Made by a program: the position numbers and the translations under genes
DNA from: Lingula anatina
Taxonomy: Eukaryota; Animalia; Brachiopoda
Length of the DNA: 64,000 nt
NCBI GenBank assembly: GCA_051362555.1
Contig: CM120641.1
Coordinates: 44,708,401 to 44,772,400 of the forward strand
Reading direction: 5' to 3'
In this document: piece by piece, positions 31,352-61,920 of the stretch
Numbering within the stretch: the stretch's first letter is position 1
How the letters are laid out: every line of letters starts with the position of its first letter
Notes under the pieces: model-generated
What the model was told of the DNA's origin: nothing
What the model saw: the letters and a program-made list of their open reading frames with translations, nothing else
Databases searched by the model: none

Positions 31352-31359
31352 TACACACA

Positions 31360-31399
<40 letters not shown>
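31352..31399. repeat. (CA)n microsatellite
   Basis: About 23 near-perfect AC units. Confidence 0.9.
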
Positions 31400-31400
<1 letters not shown>

Positions 31401-35582: not shown

Positions 35583-35584
35583 TA

Positions 35585-36433: not shown

Positions 36434-37203
36434 TAATTTTTCACCATAGCCTTCAAAAACTAGCCTATTGCATAACAACATATATTCTGACTTGTTTAAG
36501 TGAAATTTTAACCATCTGGAGAAAAAAGTGATGAAAAGAAAGTGATTTGCCCGAGCAAAAAAAATTCTATCTCTATCTCAGTCTCTACTTGGGCCACAGA
36601 TTGATTTTTCCCCAGATACTCATAATTATGTCTCTGGTTAATTCTATGCTCTTCCCTGTACTGTGAGTCCATAGATGAACTATGTATGTATTGGATTGAT
36701 GTTATCACTTTGCTGGCCTCTGGTACACTCTATACTGTAAATCTCACGGTGAGTGTTCTTAATATATAAAACCCACTATAGCCACCAAGTTTACAACATA
36801 AAAATTATCCACTTCCAGACCATGCGACTCTTTTCTACAGGTACTGATTGAATACTCCCCAATAAGGAGAGGAATTTTTAATAATTTGAACTATACACAA
36901 TTTACATGCTTAAGTCTCAATTTCAATATTGTATTTTTTTTTTTTTTTTTTTTGTAGTAGTAGTAGTAGTAGTAGATATTTTTGAAAAAGATCCTTTCAG
37001 CTTCAAAGCGTGTTTTAACTGAGTATTTGACAGCAAACTAATTTTTTGTTCATATCATAATCAATCCAGAAGTCCAACATGGTTAGATGTAGATTGATCT
37101 AATACTGTATCATGTATATAATCTGACCACATAACATATGTATTTTCCAATCTTGTCTTCCATGTACTCCTGTTCTTCTTCAAAACAGATTGTGATCGAA
37201 AAG

Positions 37204-37401
37204 CTAAAATCTTTTTTTAGGATTTTTTCCTCTACAGTGACGGCGTAGATGGCGCTGAAGGTAGTATCTGCATGTGTAAGCAACTCCGCACCAGGGGCAG
37301 TTTCTCTTCTGTACATTATGCTGACTTGCCATATGGCGCCTTAAATTGCTTCGTTGTGAAAATTGTTTGTGACAAACTGTGCAGAAAAGGTCTCCATCCT
37401 C
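37204..37401 (-). CDS. Alternative terminal exon V10, two fingers (absent from ORF track)
   Basis: tcttacag|GAG phase 0; EDGDLFCTVCHKQFSQRSNLRRHMASQHNVQKRNCPWCGVAYTCRYYLQRHLRRHC...*. Confidence 0.88.
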   Translation of the reverse strand, partial: EDGDLFCTVCHKQFSQRSNLRRHMASQHNVQKRNCPWCGVAYTCRYYLQRHLRRHCRGKNPKKRF

Positions 37402-38508
37402 CTGTAAGAGGGCAAGATATGATATAAAGGCTTATGCACCATTCAACTTTCTATTGTTCCAAAACACTATTTTATTAACCAGTCAGAAGCAAAAGCACAT
37501 TCTGTTGGGGTAAAGGGTAGGCTTCAGGAGAGGGCGACAGTCCACACCCCACCTTCAGCCTTCCTTTTACATGTCAGTCATGGTGATGGAGCATGACTAA
37601 AAAGTCCTCCCCCCTGCCCTCAAAAACTTTTCTCCTCTTATTTTGGTGTCACTTCACATATGACTTTAGTTCAAGTTCAAAAGTTCAGCAATTAAAAATA
37701 TGACATCACATAGATCAAGCCCAATCGGGTTTCCCTACATGTGAATAAACCCAAAACGCACAAATAACATATATATTGTAAAATGTATTTGTTCCTTTCA
37801 TCAAGAGACAAAACAGTACAATAATTATGCAGTGCCTGTATATACCCCCAGGTGCAATTCTTAAATAATAAATGAAAAAAATTGTTATATTCAATAGCCA
37901 ATGACTAAAATTATCAAATTTGTTTTCACCGAAAATGCTTCAGAAATTGATGAAACCTTGCAAATATGCAAAACATCCCCACATATAATCTCACTCAATA
38001 GTTTTTCTGATGTATGTTGCAAAATGTTGGCAAATAGACTAAACCAACTAACAGCGCTGTAAAACACCCAATTAAAATCTGCTTCAATTATCAATTTATT
38101 ACACATGAACTGTGTTTAAACATAATTTTTGGACAGCCATTACTAGCACATACACAATTACTTCTTTTATAACTTCTCCTTAATATAACTCAGATCTCTT
38201 TCAGTTGTTATTCCTGGCTTAATTTTGCTAGGAAGTCATAGTCAAGAAGTCAATAATGATAGACTGATAGTCAATTAGTTTATTTGACATCTGACAGCAG
38301 GTGCCATAGTCACTACATTAGAGCAATATTTAGCAATTACACACATCCAATAAAATCACTCTCTACATCATTTTTATCTCATTACAAATATACCATTTAC
38401 TACAAAACAAAATGTTCATAGATCCCATTTCCAAACTTCTGTGGTTTCATCATATTAATTCTCTATATAGCTGCTTAGCTTAGATGTAAATTCATTCACA
38501 GTTACTCA

Positions 38509-38736
38509 TCATGTAACTTTCTCCAAATAATGATCATTCTTCCCACTTGCAAACCTAGCTCTACAGATGGTACGCATGTGATGTTTTAGGTAGTCTGTAC
38601 GTTTGCACTTCACTCCACACCATGGACATTGCTGAGTTATTGATGAATGCTGAATGGAAAGGTGTCTTTTTAAGTTCCCTCGTGTGGAAAACCTCCTAGT
38701 GCATATTGAGCAAACAAGATCCTCCAAGTTGCTCTC
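38509..38736 (-). CDS. Alternative terminal exon V9, C2H2 + C2HC fingers
   Basis: ctttgtag|GAG phase 0; ESNLEDLVCSICTRRFSTRGNLKRHLSIQHSSITQQCPWC...HHMRTIC...*. Confidence 0.88.
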   Translation of the reverse strand, partial: ESNLEDLVCSICTRRFSTRGNLKRHLSIQHSSITQQCPWCGVKCKRTDYLKHHMRTICRARFASGKNDHYLEKVT

Positions 38737-40689
38737 CTACAAAGAAGCAAGCAGAGGATGAGGATCAGGCCTCATAACCGTATGCTATCATGAACCTTAG
38801 ATTTGGGAGCACGAATACCCAAATTTATGACTCGAGCCACAAATTACGTAAAATTAGTAGATTCAAACACAGCGACAGAGCATTTTGAGTGTCATAACAC
38901 TGTGCTTGTGTCTACTAATTTAACATTCATAAAGATTATTGCATGCCCATAATCTAATTTATCAAGCTAAGATTTTACCCGAGTCGCTTCCTACAGCTGC
39001 CTCTGTAAATAACATTACGTCATCCACTTAACCTTATGGCACTATTAGCCAATCGCGCCGCGGGTTTGAATCACGTGCGGAGGAAGACAGAGACCACGCA
39101 TCTTGTGCACATTCCTGAAGACACTCTTTGGCTTACAGCTCAGCCACACGGACAAATATGACAAGCGCGTAAGTAGAAGTCAACACCAAATAACATCAAT
39201 ACCGATCAAGGGTAAGTTACTACCTTCGTTTATTCACTTTACGCTCTTTCACGAGCTTTATGTCGTCACACGGCGCTTATTAGCTACAACACGAATAACA
39301 TGAGTAGCACGAGTTTCGCTGGTTCATATGTATTTGTTTCCTGTTACACACCCTTGGTAATAGGTACAGCTAAGTACTTTTCTATTTCTTTAACGGTAAA
39401 CTTTGCTTAGGAAACAAAGAAAACGACCCGATTAGTTATAACTTCCGATAAAATGGCCAGTTTCTGTACGTTCTACGCATCGAAGCGAGTCAAAATGGCG
39501 GACTCCTAAATTGTTAGTTGATATCGACTAATTGACACAATAAGATTCTTATGGTTAGGTGTTACTCGTACAGACAGTTACGAATGAATTATGCGTTTAA
39601 TGGTAGTATATGCAATTCCCTATCTTCTCCTACCACCGTGAGTCGTGGGAAAACATTCACTTTTGTTCGGCTGCATCCTGTACCGGACAACATGGCGCCT
39701 CCGGATACGCTTACGTAATCATTAATTGCTTGCACATGCCGGGTGGTCAAATATATGCTTTGATGCCTCGACACCCTGGGAGAAGCAAAAATTTTATACA
39801 TCCAGATCTAGGATTATTAATAATAATAATAATTTATTCGAGCATTAAATATGACAGTTACATTTGTTAGCCCTCTATACTACAAATAGATGGATAAATA
39901 AATAGTTATACAGCACTATGGATTACTACTTATACAGTGTTTTAAGAATATTTATTACAGTGTATAATTATAACAATTGTAAAAAGTTCACTATTAACTA
40001 ATGTTAACTAACGTTGAGGGATCACATCTGCTCACCCCCCCCCCCCCCTTTTTTATCTCTATATTGCTAGATTCTTAATACCATAAGCTTTATTAGGGGC
40101 TGGTAATGCCTTGCCTTTACCCTAATTTATTATGTTTCAGATAGTTGCATGCCTTTAAGTTTCCTTAATATGGAAATTATGATAACTGGTCGCAGTCTTA
40201 TTAGAGGATTAGAACAGGAAGCCCCTCCAAATCTCAACCCCCATCCAGGAGGGTTTAGTGTTCAATGGCTATGGAAAAAGTGGAGCCCGATTGGGCCATT
40301 TTCTGTCCAGTGATGACTTCCCAGAATGACCTCCTAGAACCTCCTTCAATTGGGTGGAAATTATGTGCGAGCCCCCCGCCCCCCCTTCGATGCGCAACAA
40401 ATTACAAGCAAGATAGTATCACTCAACCTATGCATTCAGGACTTAAATCCAGATGCTGTGATTTTCTGGGACAGCTCCTATTTCGATCTGCGCCCAGCTG
40501 CGGATATCTCCCAACGAAAGCTGACCAGGACAGTTATTACGAATGTGTCAGGCAACTGAATAAGACCTTACAGGGACAGGCTAAGGTCCACTTTCTTCGG
40601 CATGTGGGTGCCACCGAACAATGGGAGAACAATCCGTCAAGAAGGGGTACACATGAATGAGTTAGGCACTCGTATGCTATGATGATCTT

Positions 40690-42090
40690 TCCGAGGCTAC
40701 AGCATGTTGCCGCTTTTCTATTACTTAAACTGCATAAATACAGATCGGGCTAAAACGCATGGCCGCTTTAAACCAAATGCAAACATGCTATAGCTTGATT
40801 TATAGTTACATTCACATACGTTTACTTCGCCATTGACTCGCCACCATATTTACCGACTTATGTATATGAGTAGCTTAAGCTTACGATGTGCCTTCAACAA
40901 TTGGTATGCGAACGACTTTGATCTCGACCAGTGAGCCCATCAGGCGGCTGCTTTCTCTTGTGACTATAAGGGCTACAACATGTTACTGCTTTTCTATTAC
41001 TTATGATACATCGATACAGCCTGGGCCACAATGCGTGGCCTCATTATGCCAGGTGCATACACGCTACAGCTCGATTTATACTTGATCTATAGTTACATTC
41101 ACGTACAATTACTTAGCCATTGACTCACCACCATATTTACCAACTTATGCGTAAGAGTAGCCTAAGCTTATGCTGTGCATTCAACAATTGTTGTGCGAAT
41201 GACATTGATATCCACCAGTGGGCCCATCATACAACCGCTTTCTCTCGTTTACTTTAAGGGCTACAGCATGCTGCCGCTTTTCTTTTGCTTATGAGGCATT
41301 AATAGAGCCTGGGCCACAACGTGTGGCAGCATTATACCAAGTGCAAACACGCTATAGCTTGATTGATATTTGATTTATAGTTACATTCATATACATTTAC
41401 TTCGCCATTGATTTCTGCCAATGGGCCCATCATAAGGCCGCTTTCTCTTATTTGTACAAATGGATGTAGCACGTAGCCGCTTTACTCTAATTTACTGTAT
41501 TTTGGGGCCACAACGCTTGGCCGCATTACACCAAATCGCAAACACGCTATAGCTTGATTGATACTTGTTTTATAGTTACATTCACATACATTTACTTCGC
41601 CATTGATTTCTGCCAATGGGCCCATCACAAGGCCGCTTTCTCTTATTTGTACAAAAGGCTGTAGCACGTAGCCGCTTTACTCTAATTTACTGTATTTTGG
41701 GGCCACAACGCGTGGCCGCATTACACCAAATGCAAACACGCTATAGCTTGATTGATACTTGTTTTATAGTTACATTCACATACATTTACTTCGCCATTGA
41801 TTTCTGCCAATGGGCCCATCACAAGGCCGCTTTCTCTTATTTATACAAAAGGCTGTAGCACGTAGCCGCTTTACTCTTATTTACTGTATTTTGGGGCCAC
41901 AATGCGTGGCTGCATTAAGCCAAATGCAAAAAAAGGCTGTACAAAAGGCTGCAGCACGTAGCCGCTTTACTCTTACCTAAGCCAAGTGCAAAAAATGGCT
42001 GTACAAAAGACTGCAGCACGTAGTCGCTTTACTCTTACCTATGTCGCACCAACATAGTCTTGGGCCGCAATGCGTGGCCGCATTCAACCA
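40690..42090. repeat. Tandem repeat array inside the retrotransposon (~290-bp then ~195-bp related units)
   Basis: TTCGCCATTGA anchor recurs at 40826, ~41114 (variant), 41401, 41596 and 41790. Confidence 0.85.
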
Positions 42091-42640
42091 GCTTAAAGGA
42101 TGGCACAGCTACATGACATATGTAGACAATAGTTATTATCTTGTTTGCTTACAATTGCTTATGCCTTAATTTTTTATACCTGGACATATACTTGTCCGCC
42201 TCTATCACATACTTGTGCACCTACAGCAAGTTAACTTGCCAACATATTATACATTATTTGCAACTTTTTCAATAATGAATTAATATTACGATAACAAGCA
42301 CTATACATTGCTACGGGTACCTTTAACTAGCAATTGGCCTAAAAATAGATTCTGCAATTTGTAAAACTGAATGGCTAGCATTCGCATACGCTGTTCCGTA
42401 CATCTCATTGAACCAGATTATCAATTAATCATTTATTTCTGTTAATACACTTCCTTATGCTTTCCTCTTTTGAGCTGGCAGGGCTCTTCTATCCCTCTCA
42501 CCTCTGCCATATGGAGTCTATACTTCCTTTCTTCATTTAGAGAAGCAAATTCCAAGAACTAATATAGATTACCACGTCAACTCAAAATTGAGACAAAATT
42601 TGAGATAGACCCAAATTTAACAAAAGGCTAACATAATCCT

Positions 42641-42775
42641 ATGCAAGTCATAATAACAATCAACGAATCCTCCTTTCCCATTGTCGACAATATTACGACA
42701 CCTGTTAAGTATCAAATCTTAGAAAACTTACTTGCAGGCTATAACCCCCACATTTCTTATTATCTGGTGGAAGGG

Positions 42776-42811
<36 letters not shown>

Positions 42812-43418
42812 ATAATAATAATAAAAAAAAAAAATAAAAAAAAAAAAAATAAAAAAAAAAATTTGGCACAGAAATTGAAGCAGCACGTATTGGGAGCTCA
42901 TTCTCCACACCCCCACCCCCCATTCTTCGTCACGTCCCCAATTTATGTTGTCCCCAAAAAGACCCCAGGAAAGCTCTGTTTCATACATAATCTTTCCTCC
43001 CCGAAACACTACTCCGTCAACGATGGCATTAAGGACAAATCGGCAACGTTTCGTATGCCAATGCCTCTGATGCTATTCAACTGGCTAAATCCATAGGAAA
43101 AGATGCCTACCTGGCTAAAGCAAACATCCAGAACCATTTAGAATTCTCACATTACAAAGACTTTTGTTTCTAATGGGTTTCTCCTTAAAATCACAGTACT
43201 ATTTTGACAAAAAATTACCCATGGGCTTACGCTCTTGTTGTTAAAAATTCGAAAACCTTTAGTTCGACCATAGAATGGATAGCTAAAAACAAGTGTCGGA
43301 TACCTGATATCCTATACTTGCTGGATGATTTCCTCATCCTGTCCCCAACCAAACAAGAATGTCTAAAACGTCTTGACCATTTCATAGATCTTTGTCAGCT
43401 GATAGGAGCACAATCAGA

Positions 43419-43458
<40 letters not shown>

Positions 43459-44130
43459 ATAATAATAATAATAATAATTCCCCAGCTATTGTAATATCCT
43501 TTGCCGGTATAGAACTGGACACCTCACTGCAGGAGGCACGCTTGCCCCCTGGGAAAAATCAAAAACTACCTAGAACTAGTCCATATCCAAAAGGAAAATA
43601 GCACTGCATGATCTCCTATCGACCATCGGCCTTAAAGATTTTTGCTGCTTTATTATCCCGGTCGGGAGGGCCCTTTTTAAGGCGGCTTATCAATCTCAAT
43701 GTTGGGACAACCCAACCCCACTACAAAATCCGTCTCAACAATGAAGCCCGTGCGGACCTTTCTACGTGGCAGATATTCCTCCTAACTTTAAATGGGCGTA
43801 GCTTTCTCTATAATGATCATTGGTCTTTGTTCCCAGTAGCTTTCATTTTCACAGACTCATCCGGAGGTCTGCCCCCTTTTTTGTTTGGGAAGATTACTTG
43901 AAAAACAAAAAAGTAACCATTTTTTCAAACAATGAAGCCTTGATTTACATTCTAAACAATTGCACCTCGAAGGATCATTCCATTATGTTACTACTGAAAA
44001 AACTTATTCTACATTGTTTAAAGAACAAAAAATTTTTTGAGCCACCCACATACCCGGCGTGGACAATTGTGCTGCTAATGCCCTATCTCGGCCTAATTTA
44101 CAGGCCTTCAGAAGACTGCAACCACTGGCA
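42641..44130 (+). pseudogene. Reverse transcriptase/RNase H remnant of the YR retrotransposon
   Basis: SPIYVVPKKTPGKLCFIHNLSSP, ILYLLDDFLI, FAGIELDT, FLRRLI, FTDSSG across several frames; frameshifts and two A-rich insertions. Confidence 0.85.
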
Positions 44131-44229
44131 GATCCTCACCCTACGTCCAAACACCAGGAGAACTTACAGCAAAATTGAACCTTTTTATTGAATTTATATC
44201 TATTATATATATTAAAAAAAAAAAAAATG

Positions 44230-45009
44230 GCCTGAGAACATTCCCTTCAGATCCAACAGCGACGACCCTATTTGTACATTATCTAAGTGAATGATACAAG
44301 CCATCATTTACCAGGACACACCTCCCTGCGTTAAGCTATAAATACAAGATGGCAAGCATCTCGGACTCAACATCTGCTTTCATAGTGAAACAAACAATTC
44401 GGGGCCTGGAGAAGAAAAACCCCTCATGCGACACAAGGTCCCCAGTTACTTTGTCAATCCTACTTATGTTGATACAGATCCTCACCGTCGGTATGCAGTC
44501 AGCCTACAAAGTACACTTAATGGCTGCCATGTTTACGCTTGCATTCTTTGGACTCTTAGGGATAAGTGAAGTTGTATCTAGTGAAACTGACCACCATCTT
44601 CAACTGGGCAATGTTAAGATGAATCAGTCTGAAGGTGCCATCACCTTATATCTCCCTTCTTTTAAACATGCAGGTCAGAACTCAAATCACACGGTGATAA
44701 TTCGCAAGAGGATGCCTAAGGTATGTCCTGTGAGATGGGTCTCTGAATATGTATCCCTACGCCCTAGCACAAGCAATAGACAATAAATTCTTCGTTCACG
44801 CTGAAGGATCCCCAGTTCGCTCCCAGGATTTCATTAAATGCTTGGACAACGGTGTGAAGACAGCTAACCTCTCCCACCTGAATATTAAAAGCCATAGCTT
44901 TCGCATTGGCGGTGCTACGCTTGCAGCAAGTAGCAGCATGTCGGAAACTCGAATCAAACTCCTAAGCAGATGGAGATCCGATACATATATGAAATACCTC
45001 CGGTTTTAA
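44230..45009 (+). pseudogene. Tyrosine recombinase remnant
   Basis: AMFTLAFFGLLGISE (box I Arg replaced by Gly), CPVRW, HSFRIGGAT, RWRSDTYMKYLR; frameshift near 44770. Confidence 0.88.
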
Positions 45010-47132
45010 CTATTTTATGAATTTTATATTATTTAAGATTCTTAGCACTAGCGACTAGAAGTGTCTATTAATCAGTTCATATTTTCTTCCAATATGCTAT
45101 GGCACTAGCGACTGGAAGTGTCAATTAATCAGGTCACGTCTTCTTGCAATATGCTAAGACCAATAGCGGCTGGAAGTGCCACTTAACCAGATCATGTTTT
45201 CATTCAATATACTAAGCAGAGACCATACACAAAATCTGGGCACCAATATTTTATGCACATGACCATTGTATTCAACAATAGAATAATGTATATTATAGAA
45301 TGTCAGTATTAAGGATTAATTGTCACTTAACCGTTCTTGCCTTGGATTCACTAGTCCGGGAGCGTAGACAAACTGAGCATGAACAATCACTGTCATGCAG
45401 ATTGCTTACTAATTAGATGTGTAAATGCCAAAAAATCCTCCATGATCCTCGGTCCAGGGGTCTTGGTTCGTGGGGATTTTTAAGTTCTAGAAAATTACAT
45501 AGTTAGGATAGAGATTCAGTATTCATATTTGATAGATATATTCCCATCACCTTGATGGGTCAGCTTCCAAATGCCTCCATGGTCCTCGGTCCAGAGGTCT
45601 TAGACAGTGGAGATCTTTGAATTGTATAATTTATATAGTAATTCTGTATTCCATTTTGATAGACATTAAATCATATTTGTATTTTACAAGATACTCTCAG
45701 CCTGTTTCTTACAATTTTTACACATTATACAAATTTTTGGGTGGGGCAGAAAACTTACCGAGCTTCACCATTCGGTTTTACGATAAGTTTTCTATGGCGG
45801 GAAGTAATCCCCACCTTTTATGATCTACAGAGTTAAGCTTTAAGCTTTGCGTAATCCAACATAATATTATGTAATTGGCAGCTCGCGAACCGCGATCCAT
45901 TACGTAGGAAGTGACTCCATTGCCCCATTACTTTATCCATTATCAACCATTAGATCATAAAATGAACAAAAATTTGATATATGAATATAAAGTCTTAGCT
46001 AATGATAAATAAAGATTATTGCATGCCCATAATCTAATTTATCAAGCTAAGATTTTACCCGAGTCGCTTCCTACAGCTGCCTCTGTAAATAACATTACGT
46101 CATCCACTTAACCTTATGGCACTATTAGCCAATCGCGCCGCGGGTTTGAATCACGTGCGGAGGAAGACAGAGACCACGCATCTTGTGCACATTCCTGAAG
46201 ACACTCTTTGGCTTACAGCTCAGCCACACGGACAAATATGACAAGCGCGTAAGTAGAAGTCAACACCAAATAACATCAATACCGATCAAGGGTAAGTTAC
46301 TACCTTCGTTTATTCACTTTCCCACCCAACCCTGTCCCCCGTTTACATTCAACTCACATGCTTCTTTTCATTTCTCAACACTTACCTAGTATCAAAATTT
46401 ATGATACTCAATTTATTGGCGGGAAGTAATCCCCACCTTTTATGATCTACAGAGTTAAGCTTTAAGCTTTGCGTAATCCAACATAATATTATGTAATTGG
46501 CAGCTCGCGAACCGCGATCCATTACGTAGGAAGTGACTCCATTGCCCCATTACTTTATCCATTATCAACCATTAGATCATAAAATGAACAAAAATTTGAT
46601 ATATGAATATAAAGTCTTAGCTAATGATAAAGTTACTTAATTTGTGGCTCCAGTTGTTAACTTGGGCATCTGTGCTCACAAATCTGAGGTTTGAGTTCAC
46701 ATATACCTAATCTGTTTATTAGGCCTGAAGGAGGCAGATTTTATGTTATTGCAGTGCACAAAAGTTGGCAATATCTGTAGATACATTCAGGTATTTACAC
46801 CAGTGCTAAAAAAATATTGCCTTCCATTCTTAAATCCTTTCTTGAGAATAGCTTGAATGAGAGCCTTGACCTTGCAATGCCAATGCTCCAATAAAATTGG
46901 ATTGCTGATAATCTGCTTTAATTATCCATACCATTGCCTTAATATTGGAAACAAAACTTAAGTTTCTTTAAGTTTCACTAACAATATCAAATATGCCTTC
47001 AAATCTAAAAGGAAGAAACAAAGGTTGCCATTTTTTTCATTCCACAGCGTTTGTGCTTTTTAAGTAAGTAAACATGAAACAATAAGTTCCTCAAAAGTTT
47101 CTCAGGAGCTCACCACAAGCTGCACATATAGA

Positions 47133-47435
47133 TTAGGTGCATTTATCTTTCCCACCAATCTTCTGGTGTGCACGTCTGCTCTTTTTGGAAATGGGGTGTT
47201 CTTTGTGCCACTTTTTCTGGTGGTGTAGAAGATGGTCGCTACGATAGAAAGTTCTATTGCACAATGGACAATTGTATTCTTTGTGCAAGTGTTTGTTCAT
47301 ATGACGGGTCAATGTAGATTTCTGCACGAACCCTTGCCCACAGACTGTACAAAAATGGCTGCGAAATTTGCCAAATTCTGCGTGCATTGCAATCTCTCTG
47401 GCATTTGCAAACAAAGACAATCCTCTGGGTGATAT
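47133..47435 (-). CDS. Alternative terminal exon V8, two C2H2 fingers
   Basis: tgccacag|ATA phase 0; ISPRG...HFCTVCGQGFVQKSTLTRHMNKHLHKEYNCPLC...HHQKKWH...*. Confidence 0.88.
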   Translation of the reverse strand: MSPRGLSLFANAREIAMHAEFGKFRSHFCTVCGQGFVQKSTLTRHMNKHLHKEYNCPLCNRTFYRSDHLLHHQKKWHKEHPISKKSRRAHQKIGGKDKCT

Positions 47436-47721
47436 CTGTGGCAAAGAAACAAGTTTGAAATATACTAAAATTGGATATTGACTTTTATCTGACCCTATCA
47501 TAGCTATAACATGCCAAAGGATGTTACAAGGTGCTCAAAAGTGTTTGACCAAATGTCTCTCTGGCAGAAGAAAAACAACTTAACACCAATAACAAATATT
47601 CTCTGAAAAATTTTCTTGAACTCTGTAATGTCCCATTTACTTTAGAGGGAACAGGTATGGAAGTCTAAAGCACTAAGAGCACCTTCTGCAGATCATCAAG
47701 TCTCTATTTCTAAAATAATTT

Positions 47722-47985
47722 TCATTTTCTACTGCCATCAGGATTAGACATCGCATGATGTTGAAACTTCAGATGTCTGTGTAACAGGTCACTTCTATAT
47801 ACAATCTTATTACACAGAGGACATTTGTATTCTTTTTTCAAGTGTTTGTTCATATGTCGGGTCATGGTCGATTTCTGCACAAATCCCTGGCCACAGACAG
47901 AGCAAAAGTGTCTCCGAAGGCTGGCAAACTTTTTAAATCTTAGCATCTCCCTTCTACTTGCAGCTGTAGTACCCCTGAATTGTAT
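47722..47985 (-). CDS. Alternative terminal exon V7, two C2H2 fingers
   Basis: acttgcag|ATA phase 0; IQFRG...HFCSVCGQGFVQKSTMTRHMNKHLKKEYKCPLC...HLKFQH...*. Confidence 0.88.
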   Translation of the reverse strand: MQFRGTTAASRREMLRFKKFASLRRHFCSVCGQGFVQKSTMTRHMNKHLKKEYKCPLCNKIVYRSDLLHRHLKFQHHAMSNPDGSRK

Positions 47986-48301
47986 CTGCAAGTGGGGAAA
48001 CAAAACACAAATGCAGAGACAAAAATGTCTACATGGCAATACCCAGTAACACAGTTTTATAATTTTTTAAAAGACAATCTTCTTTTATTTTGCATATATG
48101 GTTTATAGGTGCTCTGAAGTACAGTAATTGTATTCGGATAGGCATCACCTTTTTCCAAAGAGTCCAATATACTGAATATGCTACAATGTCTTCTTCAATT
48201 GCTCTAAATGAAAAATTACAATTGATAATAAAAGTGTGTACAAATCCTTTATTTACCATGACTAATAAATATTGTTTCTCTTAAAGTACCAACTGCATTG
48301 T

Positions 48302-48601
48302 TCAAGAACATTTCTGTTTCTCTCCAGAAGCAGCAGACTTCTTTCTACCAGGCGTCAGAATGTTATGTCTAGTTTTCAAATGGTACTGAAGCAGATCTGT
48401 CCGATATACAACTTTATCACAATAAGGGCACTTGTACTCTTTCTGTAAATGCTTGTTCATATGCCTTGTTAGCGTGGACTTTTGCACAAATCCTTGGCCA
48501 CAGACAGAGCAAAAATGGTGATGGATGTTGGCAACAAGTGATCTCCTTGGCGACGGGCTTTGCTTAAGTTTGATTGGCCAAATTACTTTCCTGGAAACCA
48601 T
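48302..48601 (-). CDS. Alternative terminal exon V6, two C2H2 fingers
   Basis: tcttgtag|ATG phase 0; MVSRK...HFCSVCGQGFVQKSTLTRHMNKHLQKEYKCPYC...HLKTRH...*. Confidence 0.88.
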   Translation of the reverse strand: MVSRKVIWPIKLKQSPSPRRSLVANIHHHFCSVCGQGFVQKSTLTRHMNKHLQKEYKCPYCDKVVYRTDLLQYHLKTRHNILTPGRKKSAASGEKQKCS

Positions 48602-49638
48602 CTACAAGAGGAAATGACAAAGCCTCTTAACTTATATCAAATGATCCCTAATGAATATTTTTTTCTCCTCAAAAATATAAGCAACTGTATGTAAGGTGCT
48701 CACACAGCATCACAGAGCAATTTTGGATTTATTTCAACTTATATAAGTATTGACTCGTTCAGCGGGAACTGGAAAATGGCTTTAAAATGGGAAATGAGGA
48801 GAGACCTGCATAAGTCAGTCTTTAATGGTGAAGCAAACACAAACTAGGTACAATTTTCTGTATTTTTTAATCAATTATAGTTGATTATTGGCTGGCTATG
48901 TGCACTTCACTTCATTTAACATTGCCCTTGCTATATTTGTTGACTGACTTTCCTCTGCTGTGTTGCTATTCCTTTTTTATCAGTACTCTATGATTAAATT
49001 GACAAAAGTCCTCTCTACAGAAGTTTATAAACTCAAATGGCTCTCTACAGAAGTTAATAAACTCAAATGGGGTGTGGGGCTAAAAAGACTTTGACAAACA
49101 TTCATAATTTACACATTTGCTGGTCTTCAACTCTTCAATTAATTTTTTTGTCTTTCAAAATGACCATTGCAGCATTTCATTGGCTCCCAAACATTTGCAA
49201 AAACTCTTAATGTGTGGAAGACTTGTACACAATGCAGAAGTAAAACCAGAACATGTGTGGGGAAAACAAATTGATCAGAATGCTTTTCAGAATAAAAAAA
49301 AACAATACAAATGATTTGTAAAACTAAGACAACTCTATCATACAGGTAACTACTAGATCTCAATAATTGAAGACAGTAAATTAAAATCTGGACTTACAAT
49401 TCATAAGAACAGCTTCAGGACAAGAACCACCAAACAGAAATGTCTCTATTGTCAAACACAAACACTAAGAAAAATAAAACTTGAAAACATGAAGTATTTG
49501 ACTGAGTGAGTTTGGTGAGAAATCAACATAGTGAAGGACAAATATTCTTGATAAAAACATGCTTCAGTAAATTGATGCAGAAGTTCCCAAAAAATGACCA
49601 AATCAGTAAAATTGATATTTTCCACCACAAATCTTGGC

Positions 49639-49857
49639 TCATCGACTGATTTTGTGATGTGCTCTGAGATGGTAGCGCAATAGGTCTGCACTATATGTAG
49701 TTTTGTCACAGAAACAGCACTTGTATTCTTTCTTCAAGTGCTTGTTTCTGTGTCTGTTCAATGATGACTTCTGTGTGAATTTCGTTCCACAAAAGGAACA
49801 AATATAGGGTCGAATTTTGCTGTCCAAATATTGTGAAGAAGTTTTTGTGGGAGTGAC
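49639..49857 (-). CDS. Alternative terminal exon V5, two C2H2 fingers
   Basis: ctttttag|GTC phase 0; VTPTKTSSQYLDSKIRPYICSFCGTKFTQKSSLNRHRNKHLKKEYKCCFC...HLRAHH...*. Confidence 0.88.
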   Translation of the reverse strand, partial: VTPTKTSSQYLDSKIRPYICSFCGTKFTQKSSLNRHRNKHLKKEYKCCFCDKTTYSADLLRYHLRAHHKISR

Positions 49858-50016
49858 CTAAAAAGGGACAAAATAACTCATTATGAAAATTCTGTTTTTA
49901 AGTATATATCAAATTTTACTTGTGGATGCTCAGCAGTGCTAACTGTGCAAGACATAAAAGAAAACATTAGTCCAATTTGGACATTTTAATGCTACTTTGA
50001 ATTTGAATTTAAAAAT

Positions 50017-53000
50017 AACTAGAGGATCAGAGAGGCGATACCGCCTCCAAATATTGTACCACCAGCTGGAGCAAACGCATTCGTATAGACCCCCACATAC
50101 ACAAAATAAGGGACACAGCCACCAGTTTTGTGCTTGACAAGCTGTAAAAATGCAATCAACAAGAATTTTTAAACTATTGCAAAAAAATGTATATGGTACA
50201 ATCAAATTTAAGTTCTTCGTAAGGTAGGTCAAGGGTCAATTTCAAGGTCACAGTAAATTGCCAGTATATGACTTCCTATTCAAGTTCAAGAGTAACTATG
50301 GACCTATCTCTGTCAAGTTTGAAGTTAAAAGAGAAAGAAATAAACAGAGTTCAGTTCATGATAAAAAGTAAGTCAAAGGTCAATTTCAAGGTCACACTTA
50401 GATTGCCAGTATAGGACTTCCTATTCAAGTTCAATAGTAACTATGGACCTATCTCAGCCAGTTTTGGAGATAAAAGGGAAGCAAAATTTGCAAAATTTAG
50501 TTCATGGTGAAAAGTAGGTCAAAGGTCAATTTCAAGGTCACATTTAGATTGCCAGTATATGACTTCCTATTCAAGTTCAATAGTAACTATGGACCTATCT
50601 CAGCCAGTTTTGGAGATAAAAAGGAAGAAAAGTTTGCAAAGTTCAGTTCATGGTGAAAAGTAGGTCAAAGGTCAATTTCAAGGTCACATTTAGATTGCCA
50701 GTATATGACTTCCTATTCAAGTTCAATAGTAACTATGGACCTATCTCTGCCAGTTTTGGAGATAAAAGGGAAGCAAAATTTGCAAAGTTCAGTTTATGGT
50801 GAAAAGTAGGACAAAGGTCAATTTTAAGGTCACATTTAGATTGCCAGTATATGACTTCCTATTCAAGTTCAATAGTAACTATGGACCTATCTCTGCCAGT
50901 TTTGGAGATAAAAGGGAAGCAAATTTTGCAAAGTTCAGTTTATGGTGAAAAGTAGGTCAAAGGTCAATTTTAAGGTCACATTTAGATTGCCAGTATATGA
51001 CTTCCTATTCAAGTTCAATAGTAACTATGGACCTATCTCTGCCAGTTTTGGAGATAAAAGGGAAGCAAATTTTGCAAAGTTCAGTTTATGGTGAAAAGTA
51101 GGTCAAAGGTCAATTTTAAGGTCACATTTAGATTGCCAGTATATGACTTCCTATTCAAGTTCAATAGTAACTATGGACCTATCTCTGCCAGTTTTGGAGA
51201 TAAAAGGGAAGCAAAATTTGCAAAATTTAGTTCATGGTGAAAAGTGGGTCAAAGGTCAATTTCAAGGTCACATTTAGATTGCCAGTATATGACTTCCTAT
51301 TCAAGTTCAAAAGTAACTATGGACCTATCTCTGCCAGTTTTGGAGATAAAAGGGAAGCAAAATTTGCAAAGTTCAGTTTATGGTGAAAAGTAGGACAAAG
51401 GTCAATTTTAAGGTCACATTTAGATTGCCAGTATATGACTTCCTATTCAAGTTCAATAGTAACTATGGACCTATCTCTGCCAGTTTTGGAGATAAAAGGG
51501 AAGCAAATTTTGCAAAGTTCAGTTTATGGTGAAAAGTAGGTCAAAGGTCAATTTCAAGGTCACATTTATATTGCCAGTATATGACTTCCTATTCAAGTTC
51601 AATAGTAACTATGGACCTATCTCAGCCAGTTTTGGAGATAAAAGGAAAGCAAAATTTGCAAAATTCAGTTCATGGTGAAAAGTAGGTCAAAGGTCAATTT
51701 TAATGTCACATATAGATTGCCAGTATATGACTTCCTATTCAAGTTCAATAGTAACTACGGACCTATCTCTACCAGTTTTGGAGATAAAAGGAAAGCAAAA
51801 TTTGCAAAATTCAGTTCATGGTGTAAAGTAGGTCAAAGGTCAATTTTAAGGTCACATTTAGATTGCCAGTATATGACTTCCTATTCAAGTTCAATAGTAA
51901 CTATGGACCTATCTCTGCCAGTTTTGGAGATAAAAGGGAAGAAAAATTTGCAAAGTTCAGTTCATGGTGAAAAGTAGGTCAAAGGTCAATTTCAAGGTCA
52001 TAGTAAGATTGCCAGTATATGACTTCCTATTCAACTTCAATAGTAACTATGGACCTATCTCTGCCAGTTTTGGAGATATAAGGGACTAGATGTTATAATT
52101 TTGGAGTTACCATAATGTGCCTTAAATTTCGTACAGAAAAAATTAATTAAAATAAAGAAAATGTCATTTTGGTCAAAATTCTTGAAATAAGAGGTGCTCT
52201 GAAGTTTCAGAAGTTCAAATTTGATGAAATAATGTCATTTTTGAACACAAGTTGTCTGCTTTGCCAAGCCTTATGTTTTATTTTTTCAGAGTTCAAAATT
52301 TATTATCCATTACCGTACTGCACATTTTGCTTTTACCACCAATATGTACTTTTTGATACAGTGTAACTCGAAAACCGTATGGAATACAAAAAAACCGAGA
52401 CCACCTCCAGTGTTGGGCTTTACATGCTCTACAAAATGCAAAAAAGAATGGGTCTCTAGCATTAACGGTTCCCGAATTAGAAACAGTTTTAAGTTTCGGT
52501 ATCTTATGGCCGCTACTCCCGTGAAAATGCACCGATTGACCCCAAATTCATGGAGATGAAAGATGACTTGAAGGGTAACACTTTCCAATAATATTATTGG
52601 TTAAGTCTGTGTGGTGTCTGAATAACAGGGCAAAAAAAATTTTTTTCGTAAAAAATTTCATTTTTTTGAAAATTTTGGCCCATTTGACCTTGAAGTAGAG
52701 GTCAAAGGTCAAATCCAAGGGTATATTTGAAATCTACACATATGACTTTTGGAAAGCCGTCTATAGAAATTTTTCCCATAACTCCTTCCGTAGGGTAGAT
52801 AATTAGCATTTAATTTTGCCATTTTTAGACAAGGGTGCATTGCAATGAGTGCCACACCCAGACCCCAATACCGACAAAGCCCAAATTTTACGTGGAACGA
52901 GTTGAGATTATAGGTGACCTAAATCCATGAGATGGGTACGGGGGCCCTTACCGTCTAGGAGGAGAAGCGGTAACGGTAGCCGTCCGGCGGAGCCGGCGGA

Positions 53001-53078
53001 GCCGGCGGAGCCGGCGGAACGATCCGGACGGGACCGAAACCATGTGTACCGCCAGCGCTAACGCTGGTGGTACAATAA
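50017..53078 (+). mobile_element. Helentron/HINE-like non-autonomous element carrying a satellite array
   Basis: Starts AACTAGAGG with TGTACCACCAGC (~50055) echoing the terminal hairpin TGTACCGCCAGCG-ctaa-CGCTGGTGGTACA-ATAAA (53045-53078); (GCCGGCGGA)n just before the hairpin; central tandem array. Confidence 0.65.
50222..52084. repeat. 146-bp tandem satellite, ~12.7 highly similar copies
   Basis: AGGTCAAAGGTCAATTTCAAGGTCACA-type anchor at ~50370, 50516, 50662, 50808 ... 51976 (period 146). Confidence 0.95.
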
Positions 53079-53478
53079 ATTATCATAAATATATTACCAT
53101 TTTGTATGATGGACAAAGATTGAAGTCATGAATAATAACGAACTTTAAAAAAAAAATCTTATTTGTTCAAATAATTTTGGAAAAATGCATTTAAAACCCC
53201 AAATCCAATGTTCTATCATGTGCCACTCAAACAAAAACCACCACCACAAAATGTCAAAACTTTCATTTGAAAGTCAGTGTGCATAGAGATTCAATTTTTT
53301 ATTATTCAAATAATAGAAAATACTTTTATTAGAACTTTTGACTTTTGACTAGTGAACTACACTGTCCTTATCCTTAATAATCGTTTTGTCACACACATGC
53401 ACGTAGGCACACACACGAATCAATCACAGTCATCCTAAAATTCCAGTACTAGGTATAATGTCTTAAAATCAAAGGACT

Positions 53479-53826
53479 TCAAGATTTTCCCGTTAATCTT
53501 CTCATTTTTAAAACTTTACAAGTCTCAAAATGCTTTCGAAGAACATTGTGTCGTGACAATTCCTTTCTACAATGCGGACATTTAAATCGGGTATTTCCGT
53601 GAACATGCTTCATATGTTGTTTCAAATTTGCTGTTCTCGAGAAAAGTTTATTGCAAACAGGACATTCATTCTTCTCGTTCTTGTCTTTTCTCCACCAGTG
53701 TTCAGTTTTGTGACTATTTAAGATAATCAGAGTACTGAATCCTTTTCCACACACTGAACAAGCATAAGGAAAACTATTGGGGCTGCAACTTCCATGTGAC
53801 TGATTGTTAGAAGGGCTAGAGAGAAC
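53479..53826 (-). CDS. Alternative terminal exon V4, three fingers (C2H2, C2H2, C2HC)
   Basis: ttttatag|GTT phase 0; VLSSPSNNQ...YACSVCGKGF...CPVC...CPHC...HFETC...*. Confidence 0.88.
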   Translation of the reverse strand, partial: VLSSPSNNQSHGSCSPNSFPYACSVCGKGFSTLIILNSHKTEHWWRKDKNEKNECPVCNKLFSRTANLKQHMKHVHGNTRFKCPHCRKELSRHNVLRKHFETCKVLKMRRLTGKS

Positions 53827-54523
53827 CTATAAAAAATAATAAGTAATCTGTTACTAAAATCATTCAGCTGTGGTTTGCCCATAAGTGTTCACAATATGTT
53901 ACACTTTGTGGAAGTAAATGTGGTATTCGTCTTAATCAGATGAGTTGCATGTCTAATTATTCCCAAAAAGAGAACAGAAAAGACAAAGCCTAAACCAGAC
54001 TAGACAACAGCCATTGTTGCTTCCTCAAGATGGACGGAGGGACATCTAAAAACATATCTCATTTTGTGCCATATTTCGTTACTAAACCACAATCCATGCA
54101 GCAGTTTCTACTCTAATGTTGACAGAAGATTTCAACAAACACTGCAACATATTCAGTAATAAGTAATCTTTATTATAAGGATATTTCATTTGCCCTTGAA
54201 ATAATACCCAGGTTCTAATTACTGCTCCCCCCCCCCTCCCTTAAGCACATTTAGGGCCATGAAACTGAAACAGTGTAAAAAGTTTGTTTCCTAAATTCTA
54301 ACAAATATATATACAGAGTAAGCCTGTTATGCAAGTCTTTGCTTTCTTTAAAGTTTGAATGGCCCAAATGTTTCTGCCTTCCGTGCCAATTCTTCATGAC
54401 AATTGTGACCTTATTTTAAAACATTCTGCCAAAGTAAGAAAAAAAACCAAAGCAAATAACTTTGATGGTATTTTTTCTATGTCAGTCTTTTGACTTGCTT
54501 AAATTCACAACAATGTGCTTCCT

Positions 54524-54754
54524 CTATTTAATTTTAGTTAAATGCATATGCATTATGTGCTTTTGCAAGTTATCGCTTCTATTAAATGGTTTTCCGCAAA
54601 TGTCACACTTGTAGGAACATGGCTCGTGCTTGCTTCGCAGATGACGATTCAGATTGGTCTGAGTAGAAAAACTTTTCTGACAGACAACACAGACAAGTTT
54701 TTTCTTGGAATTAGGATCCCTCATACCATTTTCATTTGCAGCTATTCCACAGTT
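54524..54754 (-). CDS. Alternative terminal exon V3, two C2H2 fingers
   Basis: aatttcag|AAC phase 0; NCGIAANENG...LVCVVCQKSFSTQTNLNRHLRSKHEPCSYKCDIC...HIMHMH...*. Confidence 0.88.
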   Translation of the reverse strand, partial: NCGIAANENGMRDPNSKKKLVCVVCQKSFSTQTNLNRHLRSKHEPCSYKCDICGKPFNRSDNLQKHIMHMHLTKIK

Positions 54755-55200
54755 CTGAAATTCCAAAAACTTGATAGAATTTTTTTTCATCACTCACTAT
54801 AGTCATAGAAGAGTGTAAAAGAGAAAAAGTTTTTAATACTACTTATGGCCAGTCTGTAGTTGCGAACGGATTAATATCACAATTTTCAGACAAACACGAC
54901 AAAGGCAGGATGTCATTTCAAATGATACTGATCTCAATTTCTTTCAGATTTAGAAAATGTTTCTGCAGTTCTTGCCAGGACTGATGTCAGCAAAAACTAT
55001 GGGAATAATGAAAATCAAATTATGCAAGACCTGCTGACAATGCGATGGTATTCTATCTTATACTAAATGTACTCCTCAGTTTATAACAACCATCGCAATT
55101 TTTCATGTCTTCAAAAGCTTCTCAAGTTACTGCCAAGAAACAAAATCAATGGAAGCCGTGCAGATTTTGCAAAAATCTTGAAGAAAGTTAAAGGGCTTCA

Positions 55201-55434
55201 TCATTTCTCTTTGAGGCAGTGCACATTATTCTGGTGTGCCCTCAGGTTGTCTTTTCTACTGTACTGTTTCCCGCAAATGTGGCAAGGAAAGTGAGCCGTG
55301 TGCTTGTGCAAATTGTGCAAATGACGGACTAAATTTGATTGAAAAGAGAAAGTTTTCTGACAAATGTTGCAGAGCAGTTTGTCCTTGTAGGTTCCTGACG
55401 ACAACTCAACTTGATCCTTGGAATTCCTCATGCT
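55201..55434 (-). CDS. Alternative terminal exon V2, two C2H2 fingers
   Basis: aatttcag|AGC phase 0; SMRNSK...LLCNICQKTFSFQSNLVRHLHNLHKHTAHFPCHIC...HQNNVH...*. Confidence 0.88.
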   Translation of the reverse strand, partial: SMRNSKDQVELSSGTYKDKLLCNICQKTFSFQSNLVRHLHNLHKHTAHFPCHICGKQYSRKDNLRAHQNNVHCLKEK

Positions 55435-55977
55435 CTGAAATTCAGAAGATCTAGATGTTCATCCACATCAGACCAAGCCATGAGCTCATCTTGTAAATCT
55501 TCAAATCAAAAGAAAGGCAGAGTCAGTCTGTAGTTTTTCACAGTCCCTTAATGCACAAGACTATTATACATTATAGTCATTACGGTTATCTCTCAAAAAC
55601 ATTCATTTTAACTGATTAAATATTTCTCCATATTTTATGCTTTTATATATGAAAAATTGGGTTAGTTCCATAAACACTTCCTCTTCTGGTCTCCCTAACA
55701 TTCACATCTATTAAAACAACATCATTCAGGTGTTTCTTTCTCGTAGAGACTATAGAGATCTTTCCCATCATGCACCAGTGAAACCCTAAGTAACATGTAT
55801 CTCCTAAACAAAGACAGTCAGGACTACAAGTTCAAAAAGTTAAAAGATGGCGAAGTTGTGTATCTTCCCCTAGTAATAACTATGTAATCTAGCAACCATG
55901 TTCCTCTGGATACCAACTTGTCTGCAGCCAACTTTCTCCTCCATACTTCCTAGAAACCAATCTCTCACCTCCTTAAT

Positions 55978-56217
55978 TCACACAAGCTCCCGTAGTTTGC
56001 AGGTCCCAGTGAGCTCTGATTTTGTACAAAAGTGACTTCGAAGAAAGGCTTCTTTACTGTAGTGTTTTCCACAATCCTTACAATGAAACCTGTCAAATAT
56101 TTTATGCTGTTTGCTCACATGACGGGACTTGCTGCTATAGTGAGCAAATGTCTGATTGCAGAACGAACAAGTCAGCCTTGAGTCCAACTGACAGGCCCCC
56201 CGATTTCCTCCTCTTCC
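55978..56217 (-). CDS. Alternative terminal exon V1, C2H2 + short C2HC finger
   Basis: atcaatag|GGA phase 0; GRGGNRGACQLDSRLTCSFCNQTFAHYSSKSRHVSKQHKIFDRFHCKDC...RSHFC...*. Confidence 0.86.
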   Translation of the reverse strand, partial: GRGGNRGACQLDSRLTCSFCNQTFAHYSSKSRHVSKQHKIFDRFHCKDCGKHYSKEAFLRSHFCTKSELTGTCKLRELV

Positions 56218-59704: not shown

Positions 59705-60699
59705 ATTTCTAGGTTTGGACGGGGACTGTCCTGGGGGATCCATGGAACTGCTGCTGTCACCTGCTGGCTGCCAATTAACATTAGGTGGAACTAAAGCTTG
59801 ACTAGATGTTGATGGGAATGATAAAGCACCTGAACTTAAACTTTGTCCTGCACCACTTTGATCTTGAGTTAATGAGTAAAAGTCTTGAATAAAAGGTGTT
59901 GTTTGATTATTATCAAATGAAGGAGGTAAACTTTGAGAAAGGAATGCATCTTGACTGTGATTCTGTCCGTCAGATCGAGTGTCTTCTGATTTATCGTCCT
60001 CTCCTTCTGACTCTATTTTTATTTCTATGAGCTCAGGTTTTGTGTCACCTTGAATTAAACTATGTTCACTTTGGTCTTGAGTGGGTAGCTGCTGAGAAGA
60101 GTCCTGGACATTTGTTTGGCTAGCTTGACTTGGAGAACTTTCTTCTTCTGTTCCTATCCTTATTCTTTTGGATGCCATAGGTGTGCTTTCATGCACTGGG
60201 CTCCCTAAAGCTGCACTAGGTTCGGGCCTTTTAGCACCATGAACGTTTCTAAACATTTGTCTCGGCAGAACTACATTTTCTACTGGTGCCTCTGCCGGCA
60301 CTGGATGGTGACTTGGTTCAGAATATAAAGGTCTATTTGATATTTGACTCACAGCTGTTTGTGATGCATCCGCTGTCCTTAACATTCCTGAATCTGACAC
60401 AGATACACTAGACGATGAAGTTTCCGATGTCTGAGTTTTCTTTTTTCCCGCCATTCCATCCCTCTTGTGTTGTGGACTTGTGAACCCTTGTCCTTCGGAA
60501 GGTCTAGGTGGGGCATTTGGGACGGCAGCAGTGGAGGCAGCAGAGTCTTGCCCCATAGATTCACCCTGGAACACTTTGAAGACCTGCATGATTTGGGCCA
60601 CAAACCTGCCGTCTTCATAGCTGATTTCCAAATTTGACAACTCCAATGAGATTACATTATCTTGTTTGTTCCTCACCTCAATACTGTGTTGAAACTCCC
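59705..60699 (-). CDS. Shared (constant) coding exon 2: end of N-terminal domain plus S/Q/P-rich disordered linker
   Basis: attttcag acceptor phase 1, 995 nt open, ends SPSKPRN|gtaagt in phase 0. Confidence 0.9.
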
Positions 60700-61223
60700 C
60701 TGAAAATAGGGTAATTTTTATGTAAACAGTTGTTTGATCAGCTCTACATAATACTGTGCTGTTAAAAAAATAACTGGCAAAAGCTACTAAAGAACCACCT
60801 TTAAAACAAGGCAGCTAATGCTGGCATGTGGACAGACAAATTTGAGCAGTGTTAACATGGAAGAATCATGAAAACTAAGATTGAAATCTATTCAGAAAAA
60901 AAACTTCACTTTGACAATAATAACTAACACAGTTTTGCTTTGGTGTAAACAAGGAAAGCATAAAAATCAGTGCCAAAGAAAAATCTCCATGGCAAACTTT
61001 GGAAATTCTTTCCTGAAAGGATACAACTTACAACATTTTAATTCAAAATGTTCAATTTATAAGTGATACTCTTGTCTTTACGTCATCTTATTGAGATACG
61101 GATGAATAAAACTCATATGTTGTAATAATATCCAAGAGGGATGCAGAGGTTCTTCAAAATAGAAAGTTACTCTTTATCATATTAACATGATATGGCTGAT
61201 AATGAGAACAAATGTCAGCTTAC

Positions 61224-61332
61224 CATCTTGATTTGTTGCTACAAACTTGCATAACTGGCTGTCTGGTAATGTTGCACAAGACTTTACCAGTTCTACGGGC
61301 AGATTTATGTCCAATTTTGAAATTTTCAGCAT
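61224..61332 (-). CDS. Shared (constant) coding exon 1 with probable start codon
   Basis: ttttcag acceptor at 61341, ATG at 61332, MLKISKLDINLPVELVKSCATLPDSQLCKFVATNQD G|gtaagc; phase 1 fits the next exon (GEFQH...). Confidence 0.8.
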
Positions 61333-61829
61333 ATCGTTTTCTGAAAATATAAACAAGAGATACAATGCAACCACCACTAGATACAATGAAACCCATTTAG
61401 TGTATTTTGAAAAATTTACCTCAGGGAGTTGGATGTATACGTGAATTCAAGACGTATAATGCATTCTTATTGTTTCAGCTGCTGTGGCATACAGGTACAT
61501 GCTTTTTAAAAATTCGTACGAGAAAAACGTCTTTTAATAATTATAAACATACATGCTTTAACGTAGCTAATTACTTTTAAGATTTTTGCTAAGTTACTTA
61601 AGATGTTGCATTCAGCAGGTCAAATAAACGATTGATATTTTTTCCAAAAGGACGCTATGAACTTGGAAAGAAATATTTGCCACCACGTAGCCGGCGCGGT
61701 CCTTGACCTACTTTGAAAACAAAGGATGATGTACATTTCACTTCTCTTTTCTCAGCAATAACAAAAGAATCACGATAAAAACTAATTTTTTCTACTTCTT
61801 GAGGGCATATAGTAAAGCCATGCGTACTA

Positions 61830-61920
61830 ACCTTTGTGATCACGGCGTAGAAGACTAAAATAAATGGATTAATCTTCAGAATTCATTCGAGCACCTGTCC
61901 GCCATTTCTTCATTGAATAA
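61830..61920 (-). promoter_or_regulatory. Candidate TSS region / non-coding first exon with YY1-type motif
   Basis: AAATGGCGG on the minus strand (61907-61899), locally more CpG, candidate donor AAAG|gttagt near 61832; all three frames contain stops. Confidence 0.4.

What the first reader, a model, noticed from the sequence alone, without database searches (positions are those of the whole stretch)
60570..61332. Unassigned ~85-aa N-terminal domain in the position where BTB would be
Seen: spliced sequence MLKISKLDINLPVELVKSCATLPDSQLCKFVATNQDGEFQHSIEVRNKQDNVISLELSNLEISYEDGRFVAQIMQVFKVFQ has alternating hydrophobic, beta-strand-like patterns and then gives way abruptly to low-complexity sequence. 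It lacks the BTB (DVTL...AHK.VL...S.YF), ZAD (two CxxC), KRAB and SCAN signatures. Inference: an uncharacterised oligomerisation or effector domain. If it dimerises, 33 isoforms could pair into several hundred specificities, which would explain why most exons carry only one or two fingers.
Basis: inference. Interest (0 to 1): 0.85.

Follow-up and report, generated by a model that had tools for sequence, protein, structure and literature searches.

The report
Unnamed head domain, swappable zinc fingers
In the lamp shell Lingula, an 82-residue protein domain of no named family sits at the front of five groups of gene-regulator genes that each have interchangeable, likely DNA-binding ends (32 zinc-finger ends in this gene), and it likely joins these proteins to one another, as the unrelated BTB domain does in flies.

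Summary
The domain is real. RNA reads confirm the splice joining its halves and a non-coding 5' exon; stops in frame upstream of the ATG exclude a hidden BTB exon. The gene is Lingula anatina LOC106170880. One constant part precedes 32 alternative C2H2 end exons. The domain heads five paralogue groups, at 59-85% identity against 11-27% in the linkers. Every group has alternative C-termini in RefSeq: C2H2, Myb/SANT, zf-C17orf113 or unnamed. Pfam names nothing. A profile search of 1.84 billion proteins found only Lingula loci and four unnamed exon fragments. It is not BTB, ZAD, KRAB or SCAN. Weak PDB sequence hits (Sm D3, best E 0.045; NBR1, E 0.48) differ between paralogues, and an archaeal Sm profile scored at chance. 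The fold is unresolved (pLDDT 65 and 46). Self-association is inferred from position and analogy, not shown (about 50%). This scan noted the same layout before on other DNA (annelid, sea urchin; unchecked); two look-ups found no look-alike of this domain. Verdict: a new, apparently lineage-restricted domain family on a lola/mod(mdg4)-type architecture.

The parts
61833..61911 (-). Non-coding first exon (major 5' UTR) with two short upstream ORFs of 9 and 5 codons
   Evidence: Joint 61832-61340 in 74 reads of X1 and in X4, X7, X8; molecule ends pile at 61911. In-frame stops before the main ATG.
61576..61700 (-). Minor alternative 5' UTR exon (upper end approximate)
   Evidence: Joint 61575-61340 in 3 reads of X1; in-frame stops.
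61224..61340 (-). Coding exon 1: ATG at 61332, domain residues 1-36 plus one base
   Evidence: RefSeq P0002.
60700..61223 (-). 524-base GT-AG intron, phase 1, inside the domain at Gly37
   Evidence: table 5. The unnamed fragments begin or end their match at this position.
60563..60699 (-). Exon 2, 5' part: domain residues 37-82
   Evidence: 71-78% identical in three unnamed relatives.
59705..60562 (-). Exon 2, rest: low-complexity linker (residues 83-368) with an [LM]F-R-N..KR-type motif at 184 and a SUMO-consensus-like IKIE at 263; ends at the shared phase-0 donor
   Evidence: loose ends of mixed sequence at 59700-59705. The SUMO consensus label is recalled.
10617..56217 (-). Array of 32 alternative terminal exons, each with a phase-0 acceptor, 1-5 C2H2 fingers and its own stop
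   Evidence: 17 of 19 RefSeq tails tested mapped to a phase-0 AG acceptor; 15 of these are among the 32 by exact start, the rest by inspection. 3 of 7 loose-end consensi match the exons at 56217, 49857 and 38736 with 0 mismatches.

Best explanation
The segment is a conserved 82-residue domain of no named family that heads at least five paralogous Lingula gene groups with alternative, likely DNA-binding end exons, and it likely works as a self-association module, as BTB does in fly lola and mod(mdg4). Shown: the exon structure; splicing of the constant part to several end exons at this locus; the family; strong conservation against the linker; no Pfam or BTB/ZAD/KRAB/SCAN identity. Inferred: it folds as a small beta-rich alpha/beta domain; isoforms of one locus, and perhaps of sister loci, pair or multimerise through it, so that short one- or two-finger readers are combined; the linker's basic and SUMO-like motifs serve nuclear import and regulation.
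For: Family: five groups, domain identity 59-85% against linker 11-27% over all 10 pairs. 36 of 82 columns are invariant among the five, 12 of them polar, which fits a shared surface. All five groups have two or more C-termini after a constant part in RefSeq: C2H2; Myb/SANT (E 2e-11; 6e-25); zf-C17orf113 (E 6e-14); HTH_Tnp_1-like (below cut-off). The head stays while unrelated tail types change, the pattern described for TTK-type BTB factors, which have many isoforms, usually one or two fingers, and heteromultimerise (PMC11426971, passages and section 9). Net charge is -4 to +2, so DNA binding by the head is unlikely. With one invariant Cys and one invariant His there is no zinc-site pattern. 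Three unnamed relatives keep 71-78% in the domain and 20-35% in the linker.
Against: No result here bears directly on binding. The argument is by position and analogy, and KRAB holds the same position as a cofactor recruiter (recalled). The monomer models are weak (pLDDT 65, pTM 0.46; pLDDT 46, pTM 0.32) and the alignment is shallow (Neff 1.6). High identity could partly reflect recent spread of the exons; no paralogue DNA was available for synonymous rates. Read variants do not separate domain from linker: 7 synonymous to 2 changing, against 23 to 5, for the 37 coding variants shown, with 42 more rows not shown. Isoforms at the four other groups are RefSeq models that I did not test with reads.
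Confidence: 0.5

Rival explanations
1. The domain is a monomeric effector that docks one conserved cofactor (co-repressor, co-activator or chromatin protein), working like KRAB, so that each isoform aims the same activity at a different DNA site.
For: Same position and conservation pattern as the best reading. Twelve invariant polar residues fit a single unchanging partner. Conserved SUMO-consensus-like motifs occur in 8 of 8 linkers examined.
Against: No partner is identified. Most tails have only one or two fingers (29 of 32), unlike the long arrays behind KRAB (recalled).
Confidence: 0.27
2. The domain is a much diverged Sm fold, derived from the spliceosomal Sm D3 gene, that would oligomerise by strand pairing or bind RNA.
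For: Sm D3 is the top PDB sequence hit for both profiles (E 0.17 and 0.13) and for 2 of 5 paralogues (E 0.045, residues 34-76 against 22-61; E 0.34). The models give a helix followed by strands in an Sm-like order.
Against: 3 of 5 paralogues do not retrieve Sm D3. The six hit rows are all Sm D3 chains matched over the same stretch; no other Sm or LSm protein appears. A 29-sequence archaeal Sm profile gives hhalign probability 0.2% and HMM scores within shuffles in both directions. The Arg-Gly of the archaeal alignment and a last strand are absent. Residues 68-81 have helical periodicity. No eukaryotic Sm profile could be tested.
Confidence: 0.08
3. The domain is a diverged or permuted PB1 or ubiquitin-like beta-grasp module that would polymerise head to tail.
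For: The top PDB hit for 2 of 5 paralogues is KIAA0049 (recalled as the NBR1 PB1 domain; E 0.98 and 0.48), residues 31-57 against 66-92. A strand-strand-helix pattern at 52-81 is compatible.
Against: The E-values are at chance. The two stretches overlap in the query and come in swapped order. Residues 37-47 have strand periodicity (1.77 against 0.63) where a helix is needed. Pfam gives no hit.
Confidence: 0.06
4. The head is itself a nucleic-acid-binding domain, or is conserved only because the exons were copied recently.
For: No relatives were found outside Lingula and four unnamed fragments, which is odd for an old domain.
Against: Near-neutral charge. The boundary of conservation lies inside exon 2, at residue 82, not at an exon edge. 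Unnamed relatives keep the domain while the linker in the same exon diverges.
Confidence: 0.09

Closest known systems
Drosophila lola and mod(mdg4), Tramtrack-group BTB factors (PMC11426971, passages and section 9; PMC13490949, abstract and Introduction)
   Same: A constant N-terminal domain and linker joined to one of 20-31 alternative DNA-binding end exons; mostly one or two fingers; a family of loci with different tail types.
   Different: The head is unrelated to BTB (82 aa, beta-rich, no Pfam hit). TTK-type BTB is reported only in arthropods, and hexamer models of Lingula BTBs were not reliable. All 32 exons here lie on one strand downstream, so cis-splicing suffices; trans-splicing was not tested.
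Lineage-restricted C2H2 head domains ZAD, SCAN, KRAB (recalled; Pfam models scanned)
   Same: A small N-terminal interaction domain, expanded in one lineage and joined by a disordered linker to zinc fingers.
   Different: No CxxC pairs, not all-helical, no Pfam match. It is paired with exon arrays and with non-C2H2 tails rather than with one long finger array per gene.
Sm D3 (Sm/LSm fold)
   Same: Weak collinear sequence likeness over residues 34-77 (best E 0.045); helix followed by strands.
   Different: Not reproduced in 3 of 5 paralogues; no score against archaeal Sm profiles; Arg-Gly motif and final strand missing.

Membership tests
BTB/POZ (including TTK-type) | Match to BTB profiles; about 100-120 aa, mainly helical core (size and fold recalled) | tested here: not met
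   0 Pfam families for the domain; 82 aa; one helix of 4 or more residues in both models.
BTB/POZ (including TTK-type) | BTB supplied by an upstream coding exon | tested here: not met
   Both read-supported 5' exons carry in-frame stops before the ATG.
ZAD (zf-AD) | Two CxxC pairs | tested here: not met
   Cys at 19 and 28 only, and 28 is absent in one paralogue.
KRAB / SCAN | Pfam match; all-helical fold (recalled) | tested here: not met
   No Pfam hit; strand periodicity at 2-11, 37-47, 52-58 and 59-65.
Sm/LSm | Sequence-profile match with Sm1/Sm2 motifs (Asp..Asn; Arg-Gly) | tested here: not met
   Archaeal profile only: hhalign 0.2%, shuffle-level HMM scores, no Arg-Gly. The Sm D3 hit at E 0.045-0.34 appears in 2 of 5 paralogues.
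Sm/LSm | Five-stranded bent barrel with an N-terminal helix | tested here: inconclusive
   Low-confidence models searched.
PB1 / ubiquitin-like | Beta-grasp fold and profile match | tested here: inconclusive
   Chance-level hits; no Pfam hit; models too weak to test the fold.
lola/mod(mdg4)-type multi-isoform locus | One constant donor spliced to many alternative terminal DNA-binding exons | tested here: met
   32 phase-0 finger exons; reads join the donor to at least 3 of them; RefSeq isoform numbers reach X36.
lola/mod(mdg4)-type multi-isoform locus | Head domain mediates homo- or hetero-oligomers | not testable with these tools
   Needs a binding experiment.
lola/mod(mdg4)-type multi-isoform locus | Trans-splicing from separate promoters | not tested
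   No reads were laid on the exon array.

The most novel reading that the evidence does not exclude
Brachiopods built a combinatorial transcription-factor system independently of flies. A new oligomerisation domain, possibly recruited from the spliceosomal Sm fold, is shared by five loci and lets dozens of alternatively spliced readers of different structural classes (C2H2, Myb/SANT, transposon-type fingers) assemble into mixed complexes, 528 possible pairs from this locus alone.
Probability: 0.3. Interest if true: 0.85.

Novelty: new variant of a known kind. Interest (0 to 1): 0.62.

Why it matters
The variable-tail design was described as typical of arthropod Tramtrack-group BTB factors. A parallel family in a brachiopod, on an unrelated and unnamed head domain, suggests that the design evolved more than once. 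It gives a small, expressible domain on which to test whether exon arrays of short DNA readers depend on an oligomerising head. It also adds a candidate to the short list of head domains of zinc-finger proteins (BTB, ZAD, SCAN, KRAB).

Tried and rejected
Homodimer prediction: verdict 'no answer', score 0.00 in two runs, alignment not used, fold uncertain. It is no evidence either way.

Fold searches with the two weak models gave nothing clear: Foldseek best E 0.35; VIA best Z 3.5 (rmsd 3.6 over 59 residues; rmsd 2.7 over 52). No Sm, PB1 or BTB chain was among the rows shown; scattered small beta-barrels (WYL, SH3-like) scored Z 2.3-2.9. This shows neither a new fold nor the absence of a known one.

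ESM Atlas: no usable hit for two paralogues. NCBIfam: 2 chance hits, each in 1 of 8 members. The domain profile over 20 archaeal genomes gave 5 weak matches, none at an Sm gene (against 57). Metagenome scan: 434 pattern matches, 0 confirmed.

Five of the 15 hits were dropped as large or repeat-rich proteins of other families with short matches. HGSNAT and thioredoxin members of the clusters do not contain the domain. The 921-aa P0045 looks like a gene-model fusion with a neighbouring thioredoxin gene (inference). No RNA holder was listed by the index; unindexed runs of the same species label were laid instead.

Papers: searches listed no description of this domain or these loci (0 papers for four locus ids). 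The survey 'Bonchuk and Georgiev, 2024', cited in PMC11426971, was not listed and not read, and may bear on novelty. Supplements of PMC4595640 (expanded domains and families) were not read.

Full report
Observation. The gene lies on the minus strand. The ATG is at 61332, a 524-base phase-1 intron splits the segment at Gly37, and exon 2 runs from 60699 to 59705. Four RNA runs were laid on 59550-62200. The exon 1-2 joint has 81 reads in X1 and is seen in all four runs; a 5' exon at 61911-61833 joins at 61340 (74 reads in X1), and a minor one joins from 61576 (3 reads). Both 5' forms have stops in frame before the ATG, so no upstream exon supplies BTB. RefSeq names the proteins Lingula anatina LOC106170880. 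The window's constant part differs from P0002 at 1 of 368 residues. The conserved, hydrophobic part is residues 1-82.

Surroundings. Downstream lie 32 exons with a phase-0 acceptor, C2H2 fingers and a stop: 5 with one finger, 24 with two, 2 with three, 1 with five (35 rows, 3 dropped). Of 19 RefSeq tails tested, 17 mapped to an AG acceptor in the window. Reads leaving the shared donor carry mixed sequence; 3 of 7 loose-end consensi match three different exons exactly, and the other 4 are mixtures with 7-10 mismatches to their best place. The constant-plus-variable design is therefore shown for this locus.

Family. Word and profile searches found the domain at the start of five paralogue groups: this gene; LOC106150702 with the near-identical LOC106157998; LOC106156073 with the partial LOC106168367; the locus of XP_013402758; and that of XP_013406013. 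Identity is 59-85% in the domain and 11-27% in the linkers. Each group has at least two C-termini behind a constant part in RefSeq: C2H2 in three groups, Myb/SANT and unnamed tails in one, and zf-C17orf113, an HTH_Tnp_1-like tail and basic helices in one. All five linkers keep an [LM][FY][RKQ]N motif followed by basic residues, and a [VIL]KxE motif that fits the SUMO consensus (label recalled). A profile search over 1.84 billion representatives gave 15 hits at E up to 0.001: 6 Lingula proteins, 4 unnamed fragments and 5 unrelated proteins with short matches. The unnamed fragments start or stop matching at the intron position and keep 71-78% identity in the exon 2 part of the domain against 20-35% in the linker, so they look like genomic exons of related animals (inference). 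The library carries no names and need not hold all lophotrochozoans, so 'lineage-restricted' is provisional.

Identity. Pfam gives no family for the domain. Size, cysteine pattern and secondary structure exclude BTB, ZAD, KRAB and SCAN. Two weak PDB sequence leads were followed. Sm D3 is top for both profiles and 2 of 5 paralogues (best E 0.045). KIAA0049, recalled as the NBR1 PB1 domain, is top for 2 others (E 0.48 and 0.98), and one paralogue has no hit. A profile of 29 archaeal Sm proteins scored at chance. Disagreement between paralogues points to noise, but a eukaryotic Sm profile could not be tested, so a small probability remains. The models are weak (pLDDT 65 and 46) and agree only on a helix at 13-20 followed by strands. 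Periodicity suggests strand 2-11, helix 12-21, strands 37-47, 52-58 and 59-65, and a helix at 68-81, where the models place strands at low confidence. The fold is unresolved; the fold searches and the complex job are told under Tried and rejected.

Mechanism. Shown: one head and linker are spliced to one of many short finger exons, and the same head is reused at other loci with unrelated tail types. Inferred: the head is a protein-interaction module, since it is near neutral in charge, lacks a zinc-site pattern and has 12 invariant polar residues among 36 invariant columns. I put self-association at 0.5, by analogy with Tramtrack-group BTB factors, which have many isoforms, usually one or two fingers, and multimerise (PMC11426971; passages and section 9 read). 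Cofactor docking gets 0.27, Sm 0.08, PB1 0.06 and other readings 0.09.

Comparison and novelty. It is built like lola and mod(mdg4) (PMC13490949; abstract and Introduction read) but is not a BTB protein. Nine paper searches listed no description of the domain or loci. Passages of the Lingula genome paper show no mention of zinc fingers (PMC4595640; supplements not read). A 2024 survey of C2H2 domain architectures cited in PMC11426971 was not available. Earlier notes of this scan describe the same layout with unnamed heads in a probable annelid and a sea urchin (unchecked AI notes). Look-ups with this protein and with a paralogue's domain found no look-alike, but they detect only close identity, so homology between those heads and this one is open.

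Verdict. Observation confirmed; interpretation partly supported. This is a new, conserved domain family in the BTB position on a known kind of architecture, and its function is inferred. Interest 0.62.

Noticed in passing
window 42600-45010, + strand: Broken reading frames inside the exon array that resemble a tyrosine-recombinase (DIRS-type) retroelement: a weak Phage_integrase hit (E 0.019) and a reverse-transcriptase-like 'YLLDDFL' stretch (label recalled). It lies in the largest gap between finger exons.
   Followed up: partly
window 4607-4930 and about 6866-7156, - strand: Exons of a caspase gene downstream of the array (Peptidase_C14, E 9e-13 for the first; the second has no Pfam hit).
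   Followed up: partly
window 61905-61913, - strand: The 5' end of the transcript carries an ATGGCG element (recalled as a YY1-type start-site motif) that opens a 9-codon upstream ORF in frame with the main ATG.
   Followed up: no
proteins P0010-P0013 (LOC106157998 and LOC106150702), last 130-160 residues: A set of related alternative tails with no Pfam family: a second unnamed domain used as a variable end.
   Followed up: no
window 22400-26800 and 47100-49900, - strand: Neighbouring finger exons are close copies of each other (for example the exons at 26265, 25438, 24831 and 22622), which points to recent tandem duplication; two of them are cut to a single finger.
   Followed up: no
runs X7 and X8 on window 59550-62200: Many reads are only 90-95% alike with many fixed differences, mostly synonymous: a diverged population or cryptic species under the same species label.
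   Followed up: partly
window about 38045: One mixed loose-end consensus of run X7 has its best place here (9 mismatches of 30), where no finger exon was catalogued; possibly a further end exon, possibly chance.
   Followed up: no
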